This document shows positions 2,854 through 20,000 of a stretch of DNA of 20,000 bases, piece after piece. The notes beneath the pieces were generated by a model. It made no database searches. It was not told the origin of the DNA and worked only from the letters and a program-made list of their open reading frames with translations. Each line of letters starts with the position of its first letter. The first letter of the stretch is position 1. The stretch spans positions 793,130 to 813,129 of the forward strand of contig AP026146.1 in NCBI GenBank assembly GCA_030295235.1. Reading direction: 5' to 3'. The position numbers and the translations under genes were made by a program. Source of the DNA: Fistulifera solaris (lineage: Eukaryota).

Positions 2854-5800
2854 TCAATTAAATTGGTTAGCCATCAAAGAGTCGCTGAGCCAGTCTGTTA
2901 CCGCACGATGGATTTGACCAACATGCTTGGCGCTTACTTTTTCAAGAGACTTTGCAGGCGGACCCGACCAGAATGAAGATTTGGGTGCCGATTCTATAGG
3001 CGAAGGATCGTCTTTCACCACCACTGGCTCCTTTACAGCTACGGTGCGAAAGAATGTCGACACAGTTTCCAAGCAATCAGAAGAAGAAGAAGAAGAAGAA
3101 GAAAAGTCCAATGGTCGGCGTTTTGTTCTGCCACCCACTCGATTCCAAATCTACAGAAATAATTGGAACTGGTTTGGCCGGAATGTTAGGAGAAACGCTT
3201 GACGGAACAGACGGTCGCATACAAGGTAAAGACACTCCAGCCCATACAGCTAGAATGGCCAAGGGAATAACACCAGCCAAGAGAATCTCCTGGCGCTTCT
3301 GCTTTGAAGGATCGGTCAAAGGAGCAACGGTGTCTATTGTAGGCGGCACCTCAATATCAGTCTGACCGTGCGATGCCAAAAATGTTTGCACACTACGCTC
3401 AACGCTCAGGACTAGGTCCTTCGCCTTGGAGTCGGACAATCGCTTTTCTTCTTCAGCACGGAGAACAGCCATCTCTGACCTGCGCTTGGTTTCAGCAATA
3501 GCTATCTCAAGTTGTCCGATCTTTTTTTTGCCATTTGGATTCGTTGAGTCGATTTTCTTCATCAGCTTTGCTCAGGCACGACTGCAAAAATTCAGCTACT
3601 TGGTTTGACACCTCTAAACGACCTTCGACTTCAGCTAGTTGTCGCATTAGGTCATCAACTTTCTTAACGTGATCACGACTGCTCCGATTCTGGGCTTCGA
3701 GTTCTTCTTCTTTCAAGCGCAATAGCATCGTCAAATTGTTCAGCTTGGCTTCAACATCCTTTCTTTTCTCCTTCAGTTCACGTTTCTCATCTTCAACATT
3801 GGAAAGTGATGTCTGTAATGTCTCTACCCGGCGACCGCTTTCGGCTAATTGAGTTTCCATTTCGACTATTTTCTTTTGAGAACGTGCTTCGCTGATTCGC
3901 TTCTCCTCCTCAAGTCTGCTAGAGCAGGTCCGACTAAACTTAGTAATCTTGTCGGACTCCGCAAGCTGACCCTCAACCTCTACAATATGAGCAATAAGCT
4001 CTTCCATTTTAGCCGCTTGCTCGCTAATACTCTTGTCCCTGGCAGCAATTAATTGGTCCTTTTCGCGTAATTGGCTATGGAATAGTTCGAGTTGACCTGT
4101 AAGCTCCTCGAGGCGGGAGGCGTGTGTTGAACGCAATTCTAGGGATTGGTTGAGATTCACTCGTAGTAGCTGAACCTCTTTGGTTGAGTCTAACAATCGC
4201 GAATCAAGTTCATGAATTTGCTTTTGAGGTCAGCCTCCATTTTTGCTTTTCTTCTTCTATGGCGTTGATTCTGTTCTGAGGAGACGAGGAATGGCCCTTA
4301 ATCTCAGCCAGGGCCGATTCCAACGTCGTCACTCGCAGCTGAAATGATTTTAACTCTGCTTCCAACTTCACACATTGTTCACCACGCTCTCTGTAAAGTT
4401 CGGCCTCTTCTGCATGTTCGGCAATGCACTTTGCGAGCTCAGACCTAGATGCTTCAAGCTCATCAGCAAGAGACTGCTCCGTCTGCTGGGCTTGCTCGAA
4501 ACGGTTTTGCAATGTGGCATATTCCGTCTGAGAAAAAGCCCTGTCCGCCTCCATACCGGCCAGCAGGTTCGTCAGCTCACTAATCCTAGCCTCTAATGCA
4601 CATCTGACGTCTTCCAAGACATCAGGCTGCGATTCGAAGTCATCTAACTGCTTCTGAAGGCAAGACATTTGATTCTCAAAAACCTTTACAGCTCGACCCT
4701 GCAATTCGCTGTCCTCTACTGCTCTCTTCAAGGCTTCTTCTTGAAAAGAGTACTTCTCTTCGGATGATAGTAGAGATACTTTGAGTTCTTCAACCTCATT
4801 CTCAAGAGCGTCTACTTGTGCTTGGAGCGCTGGTGCTTCGTTTTCTAGTTGAGCCTGTTGAAACACTTCGTTTAACTGCGAGAGCTGTTGCTCTAGTTCA
4901 AGTGATTTTTGTTCAGCAGACTCGAGTGCTTGTTGCACTTGCTGGACATTTTCTTTAGACAAAATCGCCTCTTGTTGCGACGCTTCAAGCATCGACTGCA
5001 GGTCTTGGATAATGGCCGACCTTCCATCATCTGACGATCGAGTCGTTGCATCGCTTGCTTCCGCCAGTTGTTTTTGCAAATCTTCGATTTTTGCGTCCGA
5101 CGCTTCCTTGTCATCAAGAGCTTTTTCGAGTGCTACTTTTGCCAAACCAGCAACCTGGTCTATTTCCGCTAGTTTTGACTCCAGCTCTGCGATTTGATCC
5201 ACCAGTTTGAGCCTATCAGCTTCTGCTTCACGAAAAGCTTCGTTTGATCGGCCCTTCATTTCTTCAAGTTGTGCTTTGTAGTCAGATAGCTCCTTTTCCG
5301 CATCTTGTTTCATTTTCAATTTCCCATCTTGCTGCTGGCGAAGATCGTCGAGAGCGTTTTCCGAAGCTTGAAGCTCGGCTCCTTTCTCTGCCAGCTGTTC
5401 AATTAAATCATGAATTTGGGCTTTCAGCTGTTCTCGTTCTTCTTTTCGTTCACTTTGTGCTCGTTCAAGACTAGCACACGATTCCGCAAGCTTTGCTTTG
5501 AGATCGTCAATTGTTCTCTCCAGCAGAATTACATTATCCTCTGCGACTTGCTTGGCCGACCTGACTTCGTCTAAGACATCCGCCCAATCTTGTGCTTGCT
5601 TTGATACACAGGCAGCTTTCTCTTCCATCTGCTGAATGTGAATGTTACGCTGCTCCAGAGTTTTAGTAAGCGAGTTGGCATGTTCTACGGATGCTCTCAA
5701 CTCTGATTCTTTTTGGTTGACTTGTTCCTCCAAGACGTATAGGTTGGACTCCAAATTTGCGAGCGCCGTCTGCTTTCCCGCTAATTCTTCTTGCGCGTAC

Positions 5801-7095
5801 ACGTACGCCGAGCATGTCTCTGTCAACTTGTCTTCTGTCGTTTTCAAGTGAGACTGTAGACTGATGACGTCGGAGGTCAAGGATGAAATTACACTTTTGC
5901 TCGAAAGCGCGGCATCCTCCATGCCTTGTAGTTCGGATTCTTTTGTCACCAGAGTCGACTGCAGCATACCCAGTTCCTGCGACAATTGCTCTTTAGCTGC
6001 AGCTTGCGCTTGAACTGACAATTCAAGTCGGTCCATGTTTCTCTTCGTCTCTTCTAATGCTGTCATGGTATCATTCAGAGCAGCTTCTTTATCCTTGAGT
6101 CGTCTTGCCAAGGCATCACGCTCTTCTTCCGCCGAACGCGCCAAGAAACGAAGATGTTCGATAAAGCCTTCGTCTTCATAGTCAGAAGCTCCCATCACCC
6201 GATTCTTGCTCTGCTGCAAATCCGCAAGCTGCGTCGCGAGTTGAACAATCTGTGTTGCTTGATCAAGATTCTTCTTTTCCAACAGGCCGATTTTGTCATC
6301 ACGGATCTTTTGAACTTGCTTAAGCTCCATGATGTGCGACTCTAGCCTTACTTTTTCTTCAATCATAGAGCGTTTTTCTTCTTCGGAGTGGGATAGGTGT
6401 TCTTGCAAGAAGTCTGCAACATTACTGCTCATTGGGAGTTGGCGTTGAGGCTGGGTCGTCAGGAAGCTAGAATCATTCGGAGCTGACTTCTCTGTAACAA
6501 GTTTGCTTTGACTCAGTAGAGTTTCCATGTGTGATAGTTTTTGCTCTAGTTGTTTCCGATCGGCAGCGATAGCCAAGTCGCTGTTTTGAAGCGCCTTCAA
6601 AGTGTCCTGATAGGAACCGTCTAATTTTGCCCGAGCACCTCCATTTGCAAGATGAGCTCTTGAATTTTGACTGACTTCTTCTCCAGCTCGTTCTCGAGTG
6701 ATCCGATGCGGGAATCCTTGCTTTCTAGCTGCCGAAGTAGGGCGTCGAGTTCGGTCGATAAGTCATCTTCGTTGCGAAATTCCATGCGACTTTTCAAGTT
6801 ATCCAGTTGCTGGCCTAATTCTTTCGCCTTGGCTTCTTGCTGCATACGCCGAAACTGCAAGGAAGACGAGACTGTAGCCATTTTCTCTTCTTTTGCAATG
6901 AGATATGATGCGTGTTTTAATGTCAACAAGGATTTTGAACTGTCGGAAGATGTTTCGATGCCTGTGCCGCTGAGAACGTTCCTCTGACAGCCCCCAACTT
7001 GGGGGTGATGACCGCGATCTTCCCATCTCTTTGTTCGCTGTTCGCCGAAAACGGCGTATCAAAATGTATTGCCACGCTATCTCACTGGGCCTCAT
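2854..7095 (-). CDS. Large coiled-coil protein with a C-proximal transmembrane helix (~1400 aa reconstructed), broken by about 5-6 frameshifts (pseudogene or assembly indels)
   Basis: ORFs 6621-6929, 4210-6600, 3507-4196, 3077-3562 and 2854-3138 join into one E/Q/K/L/A-rich heptad protein via frameshifts near 6640, 4225-4245, 3525 and 3110-3130. TM segment: ILLAGVIPLAILAVWAGVSL. The start at ATG 7095 (MRPSEIAWQYILI, needing one more shift near 7057) is tentative. Confidence 0.75.
3080..3103 (+). repeat. (GAA)8 microsatellite; encodes poly-Ser in the probable true C-terminal frame of the minus-strand coiled-coil gene
   Basis: Read directly as gaa x8; translates as DFSSSSSSSSD in ORF 2854-3138. 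Confidence 0.9.
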
Positions 7096-7599: not shown

Positions 7600-10171
7600 A
7601 TGAGTTCTCGAAGCGATGACCATCTGCTTCAGCAGTTGCAGCAGTTGCAAAAGAACTAGCGCAAAAAGAAGTCGCCTTGGGCCAACAAGACATTCTCTGC
7701 AAAGATCAGGCGAACAAGATCGAAGAGTTGGTCAAACAGATGGCTGAAATGGAAGATCATTTGAATCATAGTTACAATCAGACGCTCGAGTCTCTCTATG
7801 CGGGCATGATGCAGGCAAAGAGGAGAAAGAAGAGCTCATGGAACAAATGGCCGAATTGGAGTCTCAAGTTGAAGCCGCAAAAGAAGTCAAGGAAATGATC
7901 CTAGAACAACCGGCAACTACAGCAGAAGATTCGGAAGAACTTCTATCTCTTCGCGAGAAGCTTGCCGACTTGGAGAAGCGCTTGGAAGAATCGAATCAAC
8001 AATTGCGCTTTTTGGAGGGATCGGCGCAAAAAGCCCAGGACGAGAAGCGCCATTATGAAGAGCGAGCCCTGACTCTACAAGCCGAGATCCTAAAACTCAA
8101 CGATATCCTCAAAGAAAAAGAAAGCGCTCTTGCCATGGCAGAAATGAGCGCTCAGAAGGAAAGCTCAAATGACGGCATCTGCACGTTTGATTCAAGCCAC
8201 TACACCTGCCGTAGGGGCGCCCGTTTCTTATTCAAACACAAGCGACGAGCTTTGCACACGACTTGCTGAGTTAGAAAGTCGTCTTGGCGTGTCCAACAGA
8301 GTTGCAGACTTCTTGCAGAAAAGCTTACAAAAGGCAGAGGAGCAATCGCATCACTTCAAAAATCAAAAATCGCAACTGGCAGCTGAACTCGAGACGATCA
8401 AGCGTCAACTTTTGGAGAATGCTTCGAAACTAAAAGAATCGAATGAAAAAGCCAATAAACAAGAACTTCAGATCCAAGAACTGATCAAAAAACTTGAAGC
8501 TGCTGAAAAGTCGCTCAGTTCTACTTACCAACACCGTGAAGCAAAGGTTCAAGAAGCGGTCGAGTCAGCCAATTCCGGCCAAAAGGAACTGCGCCACAAG
8601 ATTTCGCAGCTCGAGTTCCGTCTCACAGAATCCCGTCGATTCGCTGAATTTGTTCAGAGTAGCCTGAACAAATTGAAGATTGAAAAGGAGACTAATGAGG
8701 CAAAGAGCAATGCGACGATTGCCAATCTTGAATTCAAACTAAAAGAAGGAAGCCGTGTCAGTCAGTTCGTGCAGCAAACCTTGGAACGAAAGACAAGTGA
8801 GTTTAAGCAGCTAGAGTTGGCATCGATGGGCGAAAAGAAACAATTGGAGTTCAAAGTGGCCGAAGCTTCGCGCATGACTGTGTTTTTACAGAATAAGCTC
8901 AAGGAAACGGAGAAGAAGTCATCCGCAGAAATTGCAAATCTTCAGTTCAGACTTACCGAAGCTACACGCATGACACAGTTTCTCACGACGAACGCTAACA
9001 AAGCGGCTGAAAATATGCGAAAGCAGCGCGACGAAATGAATTTGCTTGAAAAGCAGCTAGAGACAACTCGCGGAGAGCTAGCTGCGGCAAAGTCGGCCTC
9101 GAAAGCTAAAGACGGAATTCTTGCTGCTCATAGCGAAACAGTTACGGAATTGCGACGCAAAGTTGGAGAGCTCGAAAGCCGATTGTCGGTATCAAACCGC
9201 GTATGTGATTTTCTGCAGACCAATCTCAGCAAGGCGGAAGAAATGAAGAGGATGGCAGAAATGCGCCGCGACGATGTTGAGAAGCAATTGTCAATTCTCA
9301 CGAATCAGCTTTCAGAAACACAAAGTAAGATGCAAGTGTTGTCGCAGATGAGCGATGACCAAGCCAAGAAAATCGCAACCCTGATGAAAGAGATCGCAGA
9401 TACAACCGACAGTCTCACCCAGACTCACAAGAGTGTCTTGGCGGAAAGGAATACTGCTTTGGAGACCAAAGAAGAGGAGACAAAATATCTTGCAGCCCAA
9501 ATTGCTCAATTAGAGTTTCGTGTAACAGAGTCACAGCGCTTATCTACTTTTGTGCAATCCAAAATGAAAAGCTTGGAGACCGACAAGAACGAGCAGGCTG
9601 CAAAGTACGAAGCTGAGATAGCTCAACTCAAGTTCAAAGCAACAGAAAGTTCGCGCATGGCTGTGTTTGCTCAGGCGGCTGTTACGAAAGTCGGCGAAGA
9701 AAAGAAATCGATTGAGACGAAGGCAGCTAGAGAAAAGGCAAAACTAGAGTTCAATTTGGCGGAAGCAAAAGAATGACGACTTTTCTGACGAATAAGCTGA
9801 AGGATACTGAGAACACGTTACAAGGTTGTCTGAAAGACCTTGAGTTCAAATTGACAGAGTCGAATCGAGTCTCCAAGTATCAGCAAACTTCTCTTGCACG
9901 TCTTGACAGAGAAAAGCAGTGTCTGGTAAGTGAAAAGGCTGAACTAGAATTCCAGATAGACCAGTTGAAGCAGAATCTCGAAGAAAAAGAACTAGAGCTT
10001 TTCGCCCGCGACAACTATACTTCTGAATTTAAGAAGAGGATTAGCGATTTGCAATCTCAGATGGCAATGGCAGAAGGAAAGCTTTCGGTAGCGTATCGCA
10101 TGAACGATTTCTTGACGAAAAGCTTAAGCCAGGCCGAAGAAGAAAAAAGAATGCTTCAGTCGGGACACTAA
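7600..10171 (+). CDS. Large repetitive coiled-coil protein (~857 aa reconstructed), paralog of the minus-strand gene, broken by 4 frameshifts
   Basis: ATG 7600 (MSSRSDDHLLQQLQQLQ) joins ORFs 7677-7898, 7838-8269, 8169-9776 and 9773-10171 via shifts at A-runs near 7650, 7818, 8160 and 9768. It carries about 11 copies of a LE[F/S][R/K]L.[E/V]S.R[M/V]..F[L/V]Q..L motif. The true start could lie further upstream. Confidence 0.78.
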
Positions 10172-10602
10172 GGTCAAAGTCAGCGAGTTGCTGTGCACGC
10201 CTCTGTCCGGTGTTTAACAACCATTAAGTTGTTCCAGATATAAAATATAGCTCTTCATAATAACTTACTTCCCCCGAGGAACTCGATAGTAAATTCCGCA
10301 ATTTATTGTTCATTGTTGATTATTCAATGCCACTGGTATTTTTGTTTGATCGACGCACTTTCTCTTGCTACATAATACGTAGTATCGGGTAAGGCTCAAG
10401 GAGACGAGTTGGAGAAAAAGATTTTTTCCGGAGAATGCCCAACTGGAAGATACGGGAATAAGGCCCTGACTGTTGCATTGTACTTATGTGTACACCCTTT
10501 TCTACACTAATAGAAATTGTCGATCCACTATATAGTATAATGTACTATAAAGTTTTAAGCCTTATCCTATATAGCGCGCAAGCCGAAAATTACATAAACA
10601 CT

Positions 10603-11922: not shown

Positions 11923-12130
11923 TCCAACTATTAAAAGATTTCCAACTATTGCTGAGATAGCAAATATTGCAACACTTCCAACGATTGCAAAACGTCAACT
12001 TATTTCACACTTCCAACTATTGTAGGACTTCAAACTATTGCAAACTTCCCACTTCTTACTTGTCACACATCTCACTTCTATCTCACTTCAAAGCGTCTCA
12101 CTTCTCAGATTTCACTTCTCACTTCTCACA
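11923..12130 (+). repeat. Degenerate 18-bp units (TCCAACTATTG...) followed by a pyrimidine-rich TCTCACTTC low-complexity stretch
   Basis: Units at 11923, 11941, 11959 and 11977 are in 18-bp phase and resemble the adjacent minisatellite. tctcacttc-like words recur several times at 12050-12130. Confidence 0.75.
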
Positions 12131-12140
12131 TCCTAACATG

Positions 12141-12634
12141 TCCACCTATTGCAACATGTCCCCCTATTGAAACACGTCAGCTTATTGCAGAACGTCCAAC
12201 TATTGCAGAATGTCCGACTATTGTAACATGTCCGACTATTGCAACATGTCGGACTATTGAAACATGTCCGACTATTGCAACATGTCCAACTATTGCAACA
12301 TGTCGGACTATTGACTAACGTCCGACTATTGCAGAACGTCCGACTATTGTAACATGTCCGACTATTGCAGAGCGTCCGACTATTGCAGAACATCCGACTA
12401 TTGTAACATGTCCTACTATTGCAGAACATCCAACTATTGTAACATGTCCGACTATTGCAGAACGTCCGACTATTGAAACATGTCCGACTATTGCATCATG
12501 TCCGACTATTGCAGAATGTCCGACTATTGCAGAGCGTCCGACTATTGCAGAATGTCTGACTATTGCAGAACGTCCGACTATTGCAGAATGTCTGACTATT
12601 GAAATATGTCCGACTATTGCAGAACGTGCGACTA
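12141..12634 (+). repeat. 18-bp minisatellite, 27 full units, consensus TCCGACTATTG-CAGAACG / TCCGACTATTG-CAACATG
   Basis: First unit at 12141 and a partial last unit at 12627, which is exactly 27 x 18 bp with no net indel. The 11-bp core is near constant and the 7-bp tail varies. Confidence 0.95.
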
Positions 12635-13516
12635 ACAGAATCACACTTTTGTAACTTTCATCCTTTTATCTCTTGCTATTTTCTTCTTCTGAAAACACAT
12701 TGTTGTTATGCTGCGTTTTCACTTGTAAGGTAAAGCCTCACTCACCACACTATTCACTTACAAAGGTTTGCATTTGAATATCGGTATCGTTTGCACTCGG
12801 ATGGCAACCTGCAAATTTTGTCAATCGAGTCTTTTATGATGCAGGATGCAGGTGCCAAATTATTTGGGTGATTAGTAACGGGTGTTTATTTTCAAATTCA
12901 TTTATTTGATGTTGGCAGTTCTTGACAAATCTTTCACGTCGGAATTCGTTGTGGCGGTATATAATACCCCCTGAGTAGCATTTACATCATACATATAGTA
13001 TCTTAGTAGCATGCTCACGACAGGATTTGAGTCACGAAGCCTGCCATTTTCAATTCGACTGTAAATATAATAGTAAAATAAATACGCCGCAAGCCGCAAG
13101 CAGCTGGGTCTCTTTTGCTAAAAGAAAAATAAAAAAGCTTAAACTCGCCCATTATTACTGCCGATGACGAACCTATCATCGTCGGTAACTGTTCGACCCG
13201 TGGCGACTCTAGACTGTACCAGTACCACTTTCATCACACATTGCGTCTGAACGAACACGCCTCGGGACACCACGTAACAGCAGCCATCGACAAGCGGCAC
13301 ATTCCTTCATCACGACGGCCCAACATTATTAACAGTAACCCACAACGAGCCTTCCGCTGATGACACGCAGCAGTATTGAACACACAGCACCACCCGTCTT
13401 CACTGCTTCGCAATGTATACACGAAAAAGCCTCCTAGTAGCGGCCACCAACACGAATTCACCACGTCTCCGGTGCCGTCCGACATGTTCTGCGTTAGTAT
13501 TTTTGAATAAAACCAG

Positions 13517-14400
13517 GCGATGGAAAATATTGTTTAACCGGGGGGCGTTGATCTAACGGTTCGTTTATGGAATCCCAGTCGACTGGATCCTGCGTTTCCT
13601 CCGCGTCCGTGGGCCGGCGGGGATGATATCCCAATCGATGCAACTCCGAGAGCTCTTCCTATTCAAGTGTACGAAGGCGGTACCACTTATCCTATTTAGG
13701 CCATCGTTGTCGACGAGAAATCATCTGTAGTAGCGTCAGCTTCGGAAAAAAACTGTTGTCGTTTCTGATGTTGTTCTGAAACAAGCCAAAGCGAAGATTA
13801 CAAGGTCACAACGGCCGCGTGAATGCTGTTGCAATTAGCAAAGACTCCGAGACTTTCCTCTCCGCGTCTTATGATGCAACTGTTCGGGATATGGGATGGG
13901 CGAAGCAGGAGTTTCGAGCCATTACAGATCCTGAAGGAGGCGAAGGACTCTGTGACGGATGTCCATGTTGTGCAGGATGACAATGAAGCACTGATTCGGA
14001 CCGCCAGTGTTGACGGCGTCACGAATCTTGGGAAGGGATTTTGCGGTGCGACGATTTCTCAAGTCCAATAACTAACATGGCACAGGCCTTACGATGGTCA
14101 GTATTTGGTAGTGTCGTGCTTAAATGGAACCATTCGCTTAATGGAGTGGCACTCAGGTAAGCTGGTCAACACGTCGAGAAGCATCATGCAGCCGGACAGT
14201 ATGGACTGATGTGTGGCGTCCGCGGCCGATGATTCAACAATAATAACAGGATCGGGAAGGCGGCCAATGCATCTTGTATGATCGGGTGCATGGTATGCGT
14301 GTTCAAAGTCTTATTGGACATTCGCGCCCAACGTCGCACTTGCTATTCACCCGCAAGGTCCAATAATTCTGTAGTCGTAACAGCCAGCTACGGCCGAGAG
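13517..14400 (+). pseudogene. WDR83: WD-repeat protein 83 (MORG1) pseudogene
   Basis: Reconstructed across frames: DGKYCLTGG.DLTVRLWNP...RRLQGHNGRVNAVAISKDSETFLSASYDATVRIWDGRSRSFEPLQILKEAKDSVTDV...TASVDG...DDFSSPITNMA..DGQYLVVSCLNGTIRLME...ADDSTIITGS...LIGHSRP...VVVTASY. This matches recalled WDR83 motifs (DGNYCLTCGSDKTLKLWNP; EPVQTLDEARDGVSSV). It has an in-frame TAG at 13697-13699 and roughly ten frameshifts. A putative splice acceptor CAG ends at 13516. Confidence 0.88.
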
Positions 14401-14589
14401 CGTTATTGTTTACCGGCCATACATCGTCCGGGGGCGTTCACTCTTGTGACCTATGAAGAGCTCAAGTGCGCGCTATAATCAAAGCTAAATCGGCATGACA
14501 ACCATTGATAAGCGAAAATGTCATCGTTATTTTCTCACTAGTGAGGTGACAGCTGGCTAACCTTTTTTCATGACTGATTAGCGGTGGCT

Positions 14590-15815
14590 ATGTAACATGT
14601 CACAGCAATTGCAGAAGATCAGCGTCCAGCGCTTCGTTACTCGTCCATTTTGCTCTGAGGTGCCTTCAGGGAAATGGATTTGATCGCTTCCACGAGTCCT
14701 AGATCTTGCACCCTTTAGCAGCCGTTCGAGGCTTGAGAATCTGAACAGCAATCATAAGGCGGTACCTGGACCAATGCACCTGACACTTCTGTGATACTAT
14801 CCAACGCACTGCAGAGCAAGGTTACTTAGGCATCGGATATCTCGCTATCAAGATATTCACCAGCTTGTAGTATTCTCATCAAAGAGTGTTGAAAAGGAAG
14901 GCACTACGGCTTGCCTTACTTCAGATCAATCAACTCATCTCGACTGACTCTTTTGAGCTTATAGACATCTAATTAGTGAGACAAGTCCATGCCACGAATG
15001 CGACCCGCTGCTGACGTGTGAAGGGGACTTTCTACTGACCCAAGGTTTGTTCGACCGGGTAGCTTGTTAAATGAGCATTGACTGTCTTTGCTAGAAGTGG
15101 CGGTGTTTGCATTCAAACTGGTAATAGAGCATTGTTATCTTTGATCCGCCAAATCGACTTGGTAGATTTAAAAAATAATGACAATGAAAGCATAAATATG
15201 AGGAATGCGTTGCTGAAGTAAGTAATATGTAAATGATTATAGTAGTTCATACGAATCTTATTTGTCGGTGCAATTGGAAGCTTTACTTGCCAAGGTGAAA
15301 AAGGTTAGAGAGCCGAGACTTCCCTTTTTCCTTGGCAAATTTTCAATTGAAGACAACTCCTCATTCTGTTTGGTTCCCGGAATGATTGCACTTGGACCTT
15401 GGTCTTCATCCGGTGCCGGCAACCGAGGAGCTACAATGTCCTGCAACAAATCAAAAGCGATAGCAACTTTGAGACCGACTTGAAATGGGATCGAGTCAGG
15501 CACAATTACTCAAATCGTGCGGAGATCCTTGTTCTTATGAGATTCAAAATGGGCGTTAAGCGCTTCTTCCAACACTTTAATGCTGGTAGTCAATGCAAAA
15601 TACTCATTTTATTCTCCTTCATCAAAGATTTCGAAATAAGCTCTTTCGCTGCTTTCATACGACTCCATGTGAATCAATTTATTGTTTGCGTCCTTAATTT
15701 TATTCAGTGGCGTGGTGAAGCTTTGAAGTACATGGTGATTCGACAATGCCGGTGAAGGATTCTTCTCCGCGCGCGTGCTTTCACGCCCTCTCTTGCTTGT
15801 GCCCAGCGTGTCCAT
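14590..15815 (-). pseudogene. Decayed protein-coding sequence of unknown family, transcribed away from the telomere
   Basis: From ATG 15815 (MDTLGTSKRGRE) one frame stays protein-like through in-frame stops at 15609-15611 and 15510-15512 to 15258; ORFs 15609-15986 and 15258-15503 share this frame. An AT-rich, intron-like segment follows at ~15157-15252, then further stop-interrupted protein-like text (LMRILQAGEYLDSEISDA*VTLLCSAL). Confidence 0.55.
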
Positions 15816-16003
15816 GTTGGTTATCTTGAATGTTGGTCGACTTGAAGATAAGGCAAATGCTGCAACCTGCAATGGGGCTGACAAAGGGAAAATGACAAGT
15901 GCAAGCTTCGATTTACCGTCATTATTTTTTTGTTGTCGCTTTCGAGGGGAGCGAGGCAGCGGGACGCGGGACGCAGGACAGCTCAAGAACTAATCCGTGA
16001 CCC

Positions 16004-19000
16004 GAAAGCGTAAGTGTGCAAAAGCGTAAGTGTCCAAAATTGTAAGTTTTGAAAAGCGTAAATGTGCAAAAGCATAAGTTTCCAAAAGCGTAAGTGTCCA
16101 AAAGCGTAAGTTTCCAAAAGCCTAAGTTTTCAAAGCATAAGCTTCCAAAAGCGTAAGTTTGCAAAAGCCTAAGTTTCCAAAAGCGTAAATGTCCAAAGAG
16201 TAAGTTTTCAAAAGCGTAAGTGTGCAAAAGCGTAAGTTGCCAAAAGCGTAAGTGTGCAAAAGCGTAAGTTTCCAAAAGCGTAAGTTTCCAAAAGCGTAAG
16301 TGTGCAAAAGCAAAAGTGTGCAAAAGCATAAGTTTTCAAAAGCGTAAGTGTGCGAAAGCATAAGTTTCCAAAAGCGTAAGTGTCCAAAAGCGTAAGTTTC
16401 CAAAAGCGTAAGTGTGCAAAAGCGTAAGTTTGCAAAAGCGTAAGTGTGCAAAAGCGTAAGTTTGCAAAAGCGTAAGTGTGCAAAAGCGTAAGTTTTCAAA
16501 AGCGTAAGTGTCTAAAAGCGTAAGTTTTCAAAAGCGTAAGTGTCCAAAAGTGTAAGTGTCCAAAAGCGTAAGTGTCCAAAAGCGTAAGTTTGTGAAAGCG
16601 TAAGTTTGCAAAAGCGTAAGTTTTCAAAAGCGTAATTGTGCAAAAGCGTAAGTGTGCAAAAGCGTAAGTGTGCAAAAGCGTAAGTGTCTAAAGGCTTAAG
16701 TTTTCAAAAGCGTAAGTTTTCAAAAGCGTAAGTTTTCAAAAGCGTAAGTTTCCAAAAGTGTAAGTGTGCAAAAGCGTCAGTGTCTAAAAGCGTAAGTGTG
16801 CAAAAGCGTAAGTTTCCAAAAGCGTAAGTGTGCAAAAGCGTAAGTGTCTAAAAGCATAAGTTTCCAAAAGCGCAAGTTTTCAAAAGCGTAAGTGTGCAAA
16901 AGCATAAGTGTGCAAAAGCGTAAGTGTCCAAAAGGGTAAGTGTGCAAAAGCGTAAGTATCCAAAAGTGTAAGTGTCCAAAAGCGTAAGTGTGCAAAAGCG
17001 TAAGTTTTCAAAAGCGTAAGTGTGCAAAAGCATAAGTGTGCAAAAGCGTAAGTGTCCAAAAGCGTAAGTGTGCAAAAGCGTAAGTATCCAAAAGTGTAAG
17101 TGTCCAAAAGCGTAAGTGTGCAAAAGCGTAAGTTTTCAAAAGCGTAAGTGTGCAAAAGCGTAAGTGTGCAAAAGCGTAAGTGTCCAAAAGCGTAAGTGTG
17201 CAAAAGCGTAGTGTGCAAAAGCGTAAGTTTGCAAAAGCGTAAGTGTGCAAAAGCGTAAGTTTCAAAAGCGTAAGTGTCCAAAAGCGTAAGTGTCTAAAAG
17301 CGTAAGTTTTCAAAAGCGTAAGTGTGCAAAAGCGTAAGTTTGCAAAAGCGTAAGTGTTCAAAAGCGTAAGTTTCCAAAAGCGTAAGTTTTCAAAAGCGTA
17401 AGTGTCCAAAAGCGTAAGTTTCCAAAAGCGTAAGTTTTCAAAAGCGTAAGTTTTCAAAAGCGTAAGTGTGCAAAAGCGTAAGTTTGCAAAAGCGTAAGTG
17501 TGCAAAAGCGTAAGTGTGCAAAAGCGTAAGTGTGCAAAAGCGTAAGTTTGCAAAAGCGTAAGTTTTCAAAAGCGTAAGTTTTCAAAAGCGTAAGTGTGCA
17601 AAAGCGTAAGTTTGCAAAGCGTAATTTTCCAAAAGCGCCAAGTGTGCAAAAGCGTAAGTTTCCAAAAGCGTAAGTTTTCAAAAGCGTAAGTGTGCAAAAG
17701 CGTAAGTTTGCAAAAGCGTAATTTTCCAAAAGCGTAAGTGTGCAAAGTGTAAGTTTCCAAAAGCGTAAGTGTCCAAAAGCGTAAGTTTTCAAAAGTGTAA
17801 GTGTGCAAAAGCGTAAGTGTGCAAAAGCGTAAGTTTGCAAAAGCGTAAGTGTGCAAAAGCGTAAGTTTTCAAAAGCGTAAGTGTGCAAAAGTGTAAGTTT
17901 GCAAAAGCGTAATTTTCCAAAAGCGTAAGTGTGCAAAAGCGTAAGTGTGCAAAAGCGTAAGTGTCCAAAAGCGTAAGTTTTCAAAAGCGTAAGTGTCTAA
18001 AAGCGTAAGTTTTCAAAAGCGTAAGTGTCCAAAAGCGTAAGTGTCTAAAAGCGTAAGTTTTCAAAAGCGTAAGTGTGCAAAAGCGTAAGTTTGCAAAAGC
18101 GTTAGGGTTAGGGTTAGGGTTAGGGTTAGGGTTAGGGTTAGGGTAAGTGTCCAAAAGCGTAAGTGTCTAAAAGCGTAAGTTTTCAAAAGCGTAAGTGTGC
18201 AAAAGCGTAAGTTTGCAAAAGCGTAAGTGTTCAAAGCGTAAGTTTCCAAAAGCGTAAGTTTTCAAAAGCGTAAGTGTCCAAAAGCGTAAGTTTCCAAAAG
18301 CGTAAGTTTTCAAAAGCGTAAGTTTTCAAAAGCGTAAGTGTGCAAAAGCGTAAGTTTGCAAAAGCGTAAGTGTGCAAAAGCGTAAGTGTGCAAAAGCGTA
18401 AGTGTGCAAAAGCGTAAGTTTGCAAAAGCGTAAGTTTTCAAAAGCGTAAGTTTTCAAAAGCGTAAGTGTGCAAAAGCGTAAGTTTGCAAAAGCGTAATTT
18501 TCCAAAAGCGCCAAGTGTGCAAAAGCGTAAGTTTCCAAAAGCGTAAGTTTTCAAAAGCGTAAGTGTGCAAAAGCGTAAGTTTGCAAAAGCGTAATTTTCC
18601 AAAAGCGTAAGTGTGCAAAAGTGTAAGTTTCCAAAAGCGTAAGTGTCCAAAAGCGTAAGTTTTCAAAAGTGTAAGTGTGCAAAAGCGTAAGTGTGCAAAA
18701 GCGTAAGTTTGCAAAAGCGTAAGTGTGCAAAAGCGTAAGTTTTCAAAAGCGTAAGTGTGCAAAAGTGTAAGTTTGCAAAGCGTAATTTTCCAAAAGCGTA
18801 AGTGTGCAAAAGCGTAAGTTTCCAAAAGCGTAAGTGTCCAAAAGCGTAAGTTTTCAAAAGCGTAAGTGTGCAAAAGCGTAAGTGTGCAAAAGCGTAAGTT
18901 TTCAAAAGCGTAAGTGTGCAAAAGCGTAAGTTTTCAAAAGCGTAAGTGTGCAAAAGCGTAAGTTTGCAAAAGCGTAAGTTTGCAAAAGCGTAAGTGTCTA

Positions 19001-19847
19001 AAAGCGTAAGTTTCCAAAAGCGTAAGTGTGCAAAAGCGTCAGTGTCTAAAAGCGTAAGTGTCCAAAAGCGTCAGTGTCTAAAAGCGTAAGTGTCCAAAAG
19101 CGTAAGTTTTCAAAAGCGTAAGTGTGCAAAAGCGTAAGTGTGCAAAAGCGTAAGTTTTCAAAAGCGTAAGTGTGCAAAAGCGTAAGTTTTCAAAAGCGTA
19201 AGTTTTCAAAAGCGTAAGTGTGCAAAAGCGTAAGTTTGCAAAGCGTAATTTTCCAAAAGCAAGTGTGCAAAAGCGTAAGTTTCCAAAAGCGTAAGTTTTC
19301 AAAAGCGTAAGTGTGCAAAAGCGTAAGTTTGCAAAAGCGTAATTTTCCAAAAGCGTAAGTGTGCAAAGTGTAAGTTTCCAAAAGCGTAAGTGTCCAAAAG
19401 CGTAAGTTTTCAAAAGCGTAAGTGTGCAAAAGCGTAAGTGTGCAAAAGCGTAAGTTTTCAAAAGCGTAAGTGTGCAAAAGCGTAAGTTTTCAAAAGCGTA
19501 AGTGTGCAAAAGCGTAAGTGTGCAAAAGCGTAAGTATCCAAAAGTGTAAGTGTCCAAAAGCGTAAGTGTGCAAAAGCGTAAGTTTTCAAAAGCGTAAGTG
19601 TGCAAAAGCGTAAGTGTGCAAAAGCGTAAGTGTCCCAAAGCGTAAGTGTGCAAAAGCGTGGTGTGCAAAAGCGTAAGTTTGCAAAAGCGTAAGTGTGCAA
19701 AGCGTAAGTTTCCAAAAGCGTAAGTGTCCAAAAGCGTAAGTGTCTAAAAGCGTAAGTTTTCAAAAGCGTAAGTGTCCAAAAGCGTAAGTGTCTAAAAGCG
19801 TAAGTTTTCAAAAGCGTAAGTGTGCAAAGCGTAAGTTTGCAAAAGCG
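16004..19847 (+). repeat. Telomere-associated satellite, ~235-240 units of 16 bp: AAAAGCGTAAGT plus GTGC/TTTC/TTCC/GTCC/TTGC/GTCT
   Basis: Read directly. The 16-aa periodicity (48 nt = 3 units) of the spurious ORFs confirms the 16-bp unit. The array starts sharply at 16004 and abuts TTAGGG at 19848. Confidence 0.97.
18102..18143 (+). repeat. Interstitial telomeric tract (TTAGGG)7 inside the satellite, same orientation as the terminal tract
   Basis: aaaagcg-(ttaggg)x7-taagtgtcc. Confidence 0.97.
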
Positions 19848-20000
19848 TTAGGGTTAGGGTTAGGGTTAGGGTTAGGGTTAGGGTTAGGGTTAGGGTTAGG
19901 GTTGGGGTTGGGGTTGGGGTTGGGGTTGAGGGTTGGGGTTAGGGTTAGGGTTAGGGTTAGGGTTAGGGTTAGGGTTAGGGTTAGGGTTAGGGTTAGGGTA
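19848..20000 (+). repeat. Telomeric repeat tract (TTAGGG)n containing a block of TTGGGG variants
   Basis: 9x TTAGGG (19848-19901), 4x TTGGGG, TTGAGGG, TTGGGG (19902-19938), 10x TTAGGG (19939-19998), then TA. The G-rich strand runs 5'->3' toward the end, as expected for a right chromosome end. Confidence 0.97.

What the first reader, a model, noticed from the sequence alone, without database searches (positions are those of the whole stretch)
17990..18807. Fossil chromosome end: buried (TTAGGG)7 at the same junction as the terminal telomere, then re-extended with satellite
Seen in sequence: (a) The telomeric tract is inserted cleanly into one unit, AAAAGCGT-(TAGGGT)7-AAGTGTCC, with GT microhomology at both junctions. 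(b) The seven variant units preceding it (GTCT, TTTC, GTCC, GTCT, TTTC, GTGC, TTGC) are in the same order as the seven preceding the terminal telomere at 19848, with an identical TTTGCAAAAGCG|TTAGGG junction. (c) The tract is flanked by a perfect 80-bp direct repeat (18022-18101 = 18144-18223). (d) The sequence after it, 18144-18807, copies 17271-17934. Inference: a short telomere, healed by telomerase on the GCGT of the satellite, invaded the satellite and was extended by BIR or t-loop copying, then re-capped at the same word. That would be a dual telomerase plus satellite-recombination end-maintenance system with a preferred healing site.
Basis: partly seen in the sequence, partly recalled or inferred. 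Interest (0 to 1): 0.85.

Follow-up and report, generated by a model that had tools for sequence, protein, structure and literature searches.

The report
Buried telomere tract in diatom subtelomere
A diatom chromosome end carries seven telomere repeats buried 1.7 kb inside its 16-bp satellite, most likely a scar of end repair by recombination, a kind of structure already known from yeast, humans and green algae, and not yet confirmed by sequencing reads.

Summary
All four sequence observations hold. The window ends in a 16-bp satellite (16005-19848) capped by TTAGGG repeats. An exact (TTAGGG)7 sits at 18102-18143; removing its 42 bp restores a normal satellite unit. The seven variant units before it equal the seven before the terminal telomere. 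An exact 80-bp repeat flanks it. The 664 bp after it copy 17271-17934, differing only by four single-A length changes.

Every unit contains the GCGT word, yet both junctions share about 118 bp of variant order. That points to one junction made once and then copied, not to a preferred telomerase healing site. Against a regular 47-unit higher-order repeat, the only extra DNA is 122 bp: the end word plus seven telomere repeats. Two routes fit about equally: an old, short chromosome end re-extended by microhomology-primed copying, or a templated insertion from the terminus during break repair.

Nothing here shows a dual maintenance system: there is one internal tract and a normal telomerase-type cap. 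An assembly or read artefact (about 0.2) could not be excluded, because no genome and no sequencing runs were available. The host is Fistulifera solaris or a close relative. This is a new member of a known kind, of moderate interest.

The parts
16005..19848 (+). 16-bp subtelomeric satellite array (consensus AAAAGCGTAAGTGTGC), about 241 units. Proximal units are degenerate and distal units more homogeneous.
   Evidence: TRF: period 16, 241.4 copies, 87% matches. Non-canonical units are 50% and 43% in the two proximal 480-bp bins and 7-29% in the distal bins.
18102..18143 (+). Interstitial telomere tract, exact (TTAGGG)7, in the same orientation as the terminal telomere and in phase with the satellite unit it interrupts.
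19848..20000 (+). Terminal telomere, at least 25 TTAGGG repeats, cut by the window end. It contains a block of TTGGGG/TTGAGGG variants at about 19902-19938.
   Evidence: TRF: 25.3 copies, 95% matches; sequence.
17983..18101 (+). Seven-unit word (GTCT TTTC GTCC GTCT TTTC GTGC TTGC + AAAAGCG) immediately before the internal tract.
   Evidence: Identical to 19730-19847 apart from one A-run length difference.
19730..19847 (+). The same seven-unit word immediately before the terminal telomere.
18022..18101 (+). 80-bp end word 'R5' (GTCC GTCT TTTC GTGC TTGC), left copy flanking the internal tract.
   Evidence: Exact match to 18144-18223. The word occurs 4 times in the array: 17271-17350, here, 18144-18223, and about 19768-19847.
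18144..18223 (+). R5, right copy flanking the internal tract. The 18143/18144 junction (GGGT|AAGT) is the only telomere-to-satellite junction in the window.
17271..17934 (+). Block B (R5 plus 37 units), the source or paralogue of the sequence that follows the internal tract.
   Evidence: 662 identities, 0 mismatches, 4 A-run gaps against 18144-18807.
18144..18807 (+). Block B', a copy of B that starts directly after the internal tract.
18808..19506 (+). Distal array not derived from a recent copy of the proximal array. It contains a third, slightly diverged copy of part of B at 19173-19421.
   Evidence: 17549-17800 against 19173-19421: 248 of 252 aligned columns identical.
17057..17343 (+). 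Block X+R5, near-identical to the last ~340 bp of the array (19507-19847). The terminal copy carries an extra ~47-bp three-unit duplication.
   Evidence: 2 substitutions, one 47-bp gap, and homopolymer-length differences.

Best explanation
The internal (TTAGGG)7 is a genuine subtelomeric interstitial telomere tract, a repair scar.

Proposed history:
1. The satellite-to-telomere junction was made once, by telomerase adding repeats onto the ...GCGT of a satellite unit.
2. Recombination within this very dynamic array later placed a second copy of that junction inside the array. The copy comprised the last 5-7 units plus seven telomere repeats.
3. A 3' end finishing in ...TTAGGGT was joined to, or primed on, satellite at GCGT|AAGT through 2 nt of microhomology.

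Against a regular 47-unit (about 751 bp) higher-order repeat, the net extra DNA is 122 bp: R5 plus seven telomere repeats.

Two routes give this product:
- Route 1 (slight lean, about 0.35): an earlier chromosome end lay at 18101. Its telomere eroded to seven repeats. It was then extended by microhomology-mediated break-induced replication, or by joining, using a closely related longer array.
- Route 2 (about 0.25): a break just before the internal R5 was repaired by copying R5 plus seven repeats from the chromosome's own terminus. The new strand was then rejoined to the other broken end by microhomology.

What is shown: the anatomy, the identities and the periodicity. What is inferred: telomerase origin of the first junction, the order of events, and the repair pathway.
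For: - The tract is exact, in phase and co-oriented with the terminal telomere.
- The left flank matches the terminal junction over 118 of 119 aligned columns, then diverges at the eighth unit. The 7-unit word occurs only twice in ~240 unit positions, both times before telomere repeats.
- The right flank starts exactly at the first base of the same 5-unit word that ends the left flank (80-82 bp exact repeat).
- The three copies of the B sub-block are spaced 873 bp and then 748 bp apart. That is 47 units each once the 122 bp are removed.
- The array shows other very recent segmental duplications: 42 identical units, and X/X'. Its distal part is more homogeneous than its proximal part. Both fit active unequal exchange or break-induced replication.
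- A random chimeric join would need the right phase (about 3 of 96 phase combinations) and the R5 unit (3-4 of ~240). This is my estimate.
- The same satellite occurs at another locus in a named Fistulifera solaris record (P0121), so related templates exist.
- Precedents: in Chlamydomonas telomerase mutants a terminal telomere became internal in a subpopulation of nanopore reads through 4-bp microhomology (PMC10620057, passages). In yeast, 145 of 234 tandem Y' junctions carry internal telomere tracts of 20 to ~500 bp (PMC13177704, passages).
Against: - No independent data were available. No whole genome is held and no sequencing run was listed, so no read spanning 18.0-18.3 kb was seen.
- The consensus looks like noisy long-read sequence. 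A-run length differences are the only differences between the copies. A homologue aligns to 7653-9862 across at least three frame changes.
- For route 1, the sequence after 18807 is not what copying from the same array predicts. A second, near-identical array must be assumed.
- For route 2, the 47-unit duplication must have existed beforehand and an unusual donor must have been chosen.
- The sequence does not separate the two routes. Two nucleotides of microhomology is weak evidence.
Confidence: 0.6

Rival explanations
1. Assembly or library artefact. The internal tract does not exist in the chromosome. A chimeric long read, or a consensus built from a mixture of molecules that end at 18101 and molecules that continue, joined one telomere-bearing end to satellite from the same or another end.
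For: - The sequence has the error profile of long-read-only consensus. All 5 differences among the recent copies are single-A length changes. A homologue aligns across at least 3 frame changes in 2.2 kb.
- The closest named organism's published chromosome-scale assembly was built from MinION reads with Canu and nanopolish only. Its authors report a telomere-like tract in the middle of another contig, with two read populations there (10.1101/2021.11.10.468027, passages). I did not establish that this window comes from that assembly.
- No read-level check was possible.
Against: - The junction has no extra bases or adapter remnant.
- It is exactly in unit phase.
- It restarts at the first base of the same 5-unit word that precedes the tract. 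For a random concatenation I estimate the chance at about 1 in 1000.
- The internal tract is 42 bp, while the terminal tract is at least 153 bp. A chimera of two natural ends should carry a full-length telomere.
- The orientation is direct, not the fold-back typical of template/complement read-through.
- From what I recall of overlap and consensus stitching, it would not produce a second R5 copy.
Confidence: 0.2
2. Telomerase has a preferred healing word in the satellite and capped the chromosome there twice independently. The organism routinely alternates telomerase capping with satellite copying as a dual end-maintenance system.
For: - Both satellite-to-telomere junctions fall after the same word, and GCGT offers a 2-nt match to the telomere repeat.
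- A seed-primed healing idea has been proposed for Chlamydomonas Sultan repeats (PMC8287924, passages).
- The array shows several recent duplications.
Against: - GCGT is present in essentially every unit, so a sequence preference cannot explain why seven variant units upstream are also identical. Copying explains it.
- R5 is followed by satellite, not telomere, at 2 of its 4 occurrences.
- There is only one internal tract in 3.8 kb, and the cap is an ordinary tract of at least 25 repeats.
- With only two junctions that are not independent, no preference can be inferred.
Confidence: 0.07
3. A classical 'short ITS'. Telomerase added seven repeats at an internal double-strand break in the array and the two ends were re-ligated, with no involvement of the chromosome terminus.
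For: The tract is a clean, exact insertion of 7 repeats with no loss of flanking bases and with short microhomology. [quoted passage not shown]
Against: - It does not explain the 80-bp duplication flanking the tract.
- It does not explain why the break fell after the very 7-unit word that also precedes the terminal telomere. That word occupies 2 of ~240 positions, so the chance is about 1 in 240.
Confidence: 0.05

Closest known systems
Yeast subtelomeric internal telomere tracts between X and Y' and between tandem Y' elements
   Same: A short telomere-repeat tract lies co-oriented with the terminal telomere, inside subtelomeric repeats. Distal to it is another copy of the same subtelomeric element. 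It is explained by recombination or break-induced replication at short telomeres. Tract lengths of 20 to ~500 bp were found at 145 of 234 tandem junctions (PMC13177704, passages).
   Different: Here the repeated element is a block of a 16-bp satellite (a ~750-bp higher-order repeat), not a 5-7 kb gene-bearing element. Only one tract is seen. The telomere-to-element junction shows 2-nt microhomology, not a conserved element boundary.
Chlamydomonas reinhardtii subtelomeres (Sultan arrays) and rearrangements in telomerase mutants
   Same: This is a unicellular alga with tandem subtelomeric repeats abutting the telomere. Expansion by unequal sister exchange or break-induced replication has been proposed, and so has healing at a seed (PMC8287924, passages). 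Nanopore reads showed a new telomere becoming internal when extra sequence was added beyond it through 4-bp microhomology (PMC10620057, passages).
   Different: Sultan units are roughly 850 bp (size recalled, not seen in a call) and carry a clear telomere-like seed. The diatom unit is 16 bp with only a GT match. The Chlamydomonas events were seen in telomerase mutants and confirmed by reads. Here the genetic background is unknown and reads are lacking.
Mammalian short ITSs inserted at double-strand breaks
   Same: An exact run of a few TTAGGG units is inserted cleanly with microhomology (PMC6410037, section 2.1).
   Different: Those insertions have unique, unduplicated flanks unrelated to a chromosome end. 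Here the flanks are an 80-bp direct repeat, and the left flank copies the terminal junction.
Human subtelomeric duplicon boundaries with degenerate (TTAGGG)n islands
   Same: Telomere-like islands inside subtelomeres are read as traces of earlier ends or exchanges (PMC6410037, section 2.1).
   Different: The human islands are degenerate and old. This tract is perfect and its flanking copies show zero substitutions, so the event is very recent.

Membership tests
Subtelomeric ITS between repeated subtelomeric blocks (yeast Y'-type / relic end) | Internal telomere-repeat tract in the same orientation as the terminal tract | tested here: met
   All TTAGGGx3 matches are on the + strand, at 18102-18143 and from 19848 onward.
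Subtelomeric ITS between repeated subtelomeric blocks (yeast Y'-type / relic end) | Embedded in subtelomeric repeats within a few kb of the chromosome terminus | tested here: met
   The tract lies 1.7 kb from the terminal telomere, inside the 16-bp array 16005-19848.
Subtelomeric ITS between repeated subtelomeric blocks (yeast Y'-type / relic end) | The block distal to the tract is a copy of a block proximal to it | tested here: met
   18144-18807 matches 17271-17934: 662 identities, 0 mismatches; 42 identical units.
Subtelomeric ITS between repeated subtelomeric blocks (yeast Y'-type / relic end) | Physically present in chromosomal molecules (spanning reads, exonuclease-resistant signal) | not testable with these tools
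   No genome is held. No sequencing run was listed, so read laying could not be used.
Short ITS inserted by telomerase at an internal break | Clean insertion of a few exact repeats with no loss of flank | tested here: met
   Removing the 42 bp restores a canonical unit.
Short ITS inserted by telomerase at an internal break | Flanks are otherwise continuous, unduplicated sequence unrelated to a chromosome end | tested here: not met
   An 80-bp direct repeat flanks the tract. The left flank equals the terminal junction over 7 units.
Seed-primed telomere healing hotspot (as proposed for Chlamydomonas Sultan) | Telomere-like seed in the repeat unit that runs seamlessly into the telomere | tested here: inconclusive
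   Only a 2-nt GT overlap (GCGT / GGGT) at the junction. It is present in nearly every unit.
Seed-primed telomere healing hotspot (as proposed for Chlamydomonas Sultan) | Independent junctions at the same unit phase in different upstream contexts | tested here: not met
   Only two junctions are available, and they share 7 upstream variant units, so they are not independent. Other chromosome ends could not be examined.
Telomerase-independent, satellite- or recombination-based end maintenance (ALT-like, roll-and-spread) | Repeated tandem modules of subtelomeric block plus telomere tract, or satellite in place of telomerase repeats at the very end | tested here: not met
   There is one internal tract only. 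The terminus is an ordinary TTAGGG tract of at least 25 repeats.
Telomerase-independent, satellite- or recombination-based end maintenance (ALT-like, roll-and-spread) | Extrachromosomal telomere or satellite circles; heterogeneous ends over time | not testable with these tools
   This needs C-circle or 2D-gel assays, or time-series long reads.
Chimeric-read / assembly artefact | Junction at an arbitrary position and phase, possibly with adapter or foreign bases | tested here: not met
   There are zero extra bases. The junction is in unit phase and falls at the first base of the same 5-unit word that precedes the tract.
Chimeric-read / assembly artefact | No, or only one, read spans the junction | not testable with these tools

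The most novel reading that the evidence does not exclude
Chromosome ends in this diatom lineage are routinely rebuilt by recombination within a shared 16-bp satellite. Critically short telomeres prime on, or are joined to, satellite and get buried. Internal TTAGGG islands would then recur at many ends, and telomerase and satellite copying would act as complementary maintenance routes in wild-type cells.
Probability: 0.1. Interest if true: 0.65.

Novelty: new member of a known kind. Interest (0 to 1): 0.35.

Why it matters
If the tract is real, it is a datable, base-resolved scar of chromosome-end repair in a diatom. My four literature searches turned up no description of subtelomeric satellites or internal telomere tracts in diatoms.

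It would show that diatom subtelomeres undergo the same microhomology- and homology-driven end rearrangements seen in yeast and Chlamydomonas. A direct-repeat telomere tract 1.7 kb from the end would also be a built-in site for terminal deletion or duplication. That is relevant to strain stability and to the design of artificial chromosomes in an industrial oil-producing diatom.

If it is an artefact, it flags a mis-built chromosome end in a long-read assembly.

Tried and rejected
- Whole genome of the window: none is held. Other chromosome ends could therefore not be encoded as unit strings.
- The look-up of sequencing runs on 13000-19900: none was listed. Read laying could not be run, so no read-level test was made.
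- Satellite-to-telomere junction word in metagenome contigs: 39 loci came back. 0 of 39 contain the satellite 10-mer, so all are unrelated.
- Same word in genome contigs: 0 matches.
- Degenerate two-unit satellite pattern: 0 in genome contigs and 0 in viral contigs.
- The search of earlier findings by place, by sequence and by words: nothing.
- Protein search with the minus-strand reading frame spanning the internal tract, hoping for an independent assembly that carries the junction. One hit, P0121, has satellite but no telomere part. The 'longer' search found none.
- Rfam on the whole window: 0 matches.
- Rejected: simple intramolecular or sister copying from 17271 onward, because the match ends at 18807.
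- Rejected: deriving the 18101 end from the present array by a single crossover between paralogous words. The predicted unit order differs from the observed one by two units (read).
- Rejected: rolling-circle copying of an 873-bp circle. Only 1.76 periods are present and the second is not followed by the expected units.
- Diatom long-read assembly papers PMC8147415 and PMC9266582: the passages seen contained nothing on subtelomeric satellites or internal telomere tracts.
Full report
**What the window is**

The last 4 kb of the window form a chromosome end. A 16-bp satellite (consensus AAAAGCGTAAGTGTGC, 241 copies, 16005-19848) runs directly into TTAGGG repeats at 19848. The window cuts these off at 20000.

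Upstream lie ordinary eukaryotic genes. A TPR/DnaJ protein is encoded at 969-2690 on the minus strand, and an Nrap fragment at 2-670. The DnaJ protein is 97% identical to a protein named for the diatom Fistulifera solaris: 477 of 491 residues, no gaps, substitutions scattered. The next hits are other diatoms. So the host is F. solaris (possibly its other subgenome) or a very close relative. TTAGGG/CCCTAA is the telomere repeat reported for F. solaris (10.1101/2021.11.10.468027, passages).

**Checking the observation**

Every element of the finding is in the sequence.

- TRF finds a perfect period-6 tract at 18101-18144.
- TTAGGGx3 occurs only there and at the terminus, always on the + strand. 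It occurred in none of 200 shuffles.
- Deleting 18103-18144 (42 bp) restores the canonical unit AAAAGCGTAAGTGTCC, so the tract sits exactly in phase.
- I tokenised the array by its A-runs. The seven units before the internal tract equal the seven before the terminal telomere, and the eighth differs.
- At base level, 17983-18101 and 19730-19847 agree at 118 of 119 aligned columns. The one difference is the length of an A run.
- 18022-18101 equals 18144-18223 exactly, and the match extends to 82 bp.
- 18144-18807 against 17271-17934 gives 662 identities, no mismatch and four one-base gaps. All four are AAAA versus AAA.
- As units, this is a run of 42 identical consecutive units. The next longest run anywhere in the array is 9. 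In 300 shuffles of the units the longest run averaged 4.7 and never exceeded 7.

**Structure of the array**

The 5-unit word that ends the array (R5: GTCC GTCT TTTC GTGC TTGC) occurs four times.
- At 17264 and at 18145 it is followed by more satellite (a GTTC unit).
- At 18015 it is followed by the internal tract.
- At 19762 it is followed by the terminal telomere.

The 7-unit word occurs twice, both times before telomere repeats.

Three copies of one sub-block start at 17648, 18521 and 19269. The spacings are 873 bp and 748 bp. The second spacing is 47 units. The first is 47 units plus 122 bp, which is exactly R5 (80 bp) plus the tract (42 bp).

So the array can be read as a regular 47-unit higher-order repeat with a single 122-bp extra module, 'end word plus seven telomere repeats'.

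Three further observations bear on the history.
- The last ~340 bp of the array (19507-19847) nearly repeat 17057-17343. There are two substitutions, an extra three-unit duplication and homopolymer-length differences.
- The stretch 18808-19172 has no recent copy upstream.
- Proximal units are much more degenerate than distal ones: 50% and 43% non-canonical in the first two bins, against 7-29% further out.

Together these describe an array that is turned over rapidly at its distal end.

**What this says about mechanism**

*One junction, copied.* Nearly every unit contains GCGT, so a telomerase preference for that word cannot explain why about 118 bp of variant order upstream is also shared. Had the internal tract landed at a random unit boundary, the chance of hitting the 7-unit word would be about 1 in 240. 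The two satellite-to-telomere junctions are therefore copies of one junction. Also, R5 is followed by satellite in two of its four occurrences, so it does not by itself attract telomere addition.

*The truly new junction is 18143/18144 (GGGT|AAGT).* A 3' end finishing in telomere repeats was joined to, or primed on, satellite with 2 nt of overlap. This is what microhomology-mediated break-induced replication or end joining would give. That statement rests on established knowledge of those pathways; the pathway itself is inferred.

*Two routes yield the observed product.*
A chromosome once ended at 18101. Its telomere shrank to seven repeats and was extended using a closely related, longer array. 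The terminal junction came along with the template, so no re-capping 'at the same word' is needed. The weakness is that the sequence after 18807 is not what copying from the same array predicts, so a second near-identical array must be assumed. The satellite does exist at another locus: a named F. solaris protein (P0121) has a C-terminus that is translated satellite, and its N-terminal domain is absent from this window.
- Route 2. A break just before the internal R5 was repaired by invading the chromosome's own terminus at the paralogous word. R5 plus seven telomere repeats were copied, the new strand was released, and it was joined to the other broken end by microhomology. This needs no second array and explains the flanking R5 repeat directly. 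It does require that the 47-unit duplication already existed.

I could not find a sequence feature that separates the two routes. I lean slightly to route 1 because it has direct precedent.

**Could it be an artefact?**

The consensus looks like noisy long-read sequence.
- The only differences among the recent copies are single-A length changes.
- A 748-residue homologue (P0122) aligns collinearly to 7653-9862 in frames 3, 2, 3, 2. That implies at least three frame changes in 2.2 kb. A real pseudogene would look the same.
- The published chromosome-scale assembly of the closest named species was built from MinION reads with Canu and nanopolish only. Its authors describe a telomere-like tract in the middle of another contig, where reads fell into two populations (10.1101/2021.11.10.468027, passages). 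I did not establish that the window comes from that assembly.

Against a random chimera:
- the join has no extra bases;
- it is in unit phase;
- it restarts at the first base of the very word that precedes the tract (my estimate: about 1 in 1000 for a random concatenation);
- the internal tract is 42 bp, while the terminal one is at least 153 bp;
- the orientation is direct.

From what I recall of overlap and consensus stitching, I see no way for it to create a second R5. I put the artefact reading at about 0.2.

It could not be tested. No genome is held, no sequencing run was listed, and scans of the public collections found no other copy of the satellite.

**Comparison with known systems**

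This belongs to a known kind: telomere tracts buried inside subtelomeric repeats.
- In yeast, tandem Y' elements are often separated by internal telomere tracts: 145 of 234 junctions, 20 to ~500 bp long. These tracts take part in recombination and break-induced replication (PMC13177704, passages).
- In Chlamydomonas, Sultan arrays are thought to expand by unequal sister exchange or break-induced replication and to contract by seed-primed healing (PMC8287924, passages).
- In Chlamydomonas telomerase mutants, nanopore reads caught a new telomere becoming internal when sequence was added beyond it through 4-bp microhomology (PMC10620057, passages).
- Mammalian short ITSs are clean insertions of 2-25 repeats at repaired breaks (PMC6410037, section 2.1 read in full). 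This tract shares the clean insertion. It fails the 'unrelated, unduplicated flanks' feature.
- The window offers nothing for a telomerase-independent or dual maintenance system. There is one tract, not tandem modules, and an ordinary telomerase-type cap.
- Work showing that internal telomere tracts interrupt break-induced replication and seed new telomeres (PMC7736798; search listing and start of abstract only) suggests a consequence. A real tract here would be a hotspot for terminal truncation at 18101.

**Novelty and verdict**

A buried end is possible. A preferred healing site and a dual maintenance system are not supported.

My four searches found no description of subtelomeric satellites or internal telomere tracts in diatoms. 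A confirmed case would therefore be a first example for the group, but of a well-known phenomenon. Supplementary files of the F. solaris preprint were not seen and might show chromosome-end structure.

Interest 0.35; novelty: new member of a known kind.

Noticed in passing
window 19902-19938: The terminal telomere has a block of variant repeats (four TTGGGG, one TTGAGGG, one TTGGGG). It follows nine perfect TTAGGG repeats and is followed by at least ten more. These could be real variant repeats or base-calling noise. The internal tract has none.
   Followed up: no
window 7653-10219 (+) and 3077-6600 (-): Two coiled-coil genes are each split into three adjacent reading frames. For the first, a 748-residue homologue (P0122) aligns collinearly in frames 3, 2, 3, 2. 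This indicates frame changes from consensus indel errors or from pseudogenisation.
   Followed up: partly
window 11923-12634: A second, unrelated-looking minisatellite lies in an AT-richer, gene-poor stretch between the last genes and the 16-bp array. It has an 18-bp unit (TATTGCAGAATGTCCGAC) in about 25 copies at 12183-12634, with degenerate 18/35-bp and 7-bp repeats before it.
   Followed up: no
protein P0121 (named Fistulifera solaris record): This annotated 103-residue protein has a heme NO-binding N-terminus. Residues 63-103 are translated 16-bp satellite (75-86% identical to window translations). So the satellite abuts a gene at another locus, and the gene model runs into it.
   Followed up: partly
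window 16005-16960 versus 16965-19848: There is a gradient of unit degeneracy. Half of the proximal units are non-canonical, against 7-29% of the distal ones. This fits homogenisation or growth at the telomere-proximal end of the array.
   Followed up: partly
loci L008, L010, L012, L014, L018 and others: Many of the unrelated metagenome hits share one repeated element. In it, a conserved ~50-bp sequence ends in AAAAGCG and is followed by a short degenerate TTAGGG/TTTAGGG run and then a conserved 'TTTTAATTCGTTTTACA' stretch. It looks like a dispersed repeat of some host genome with a telomere-like core.
   Followed up: no
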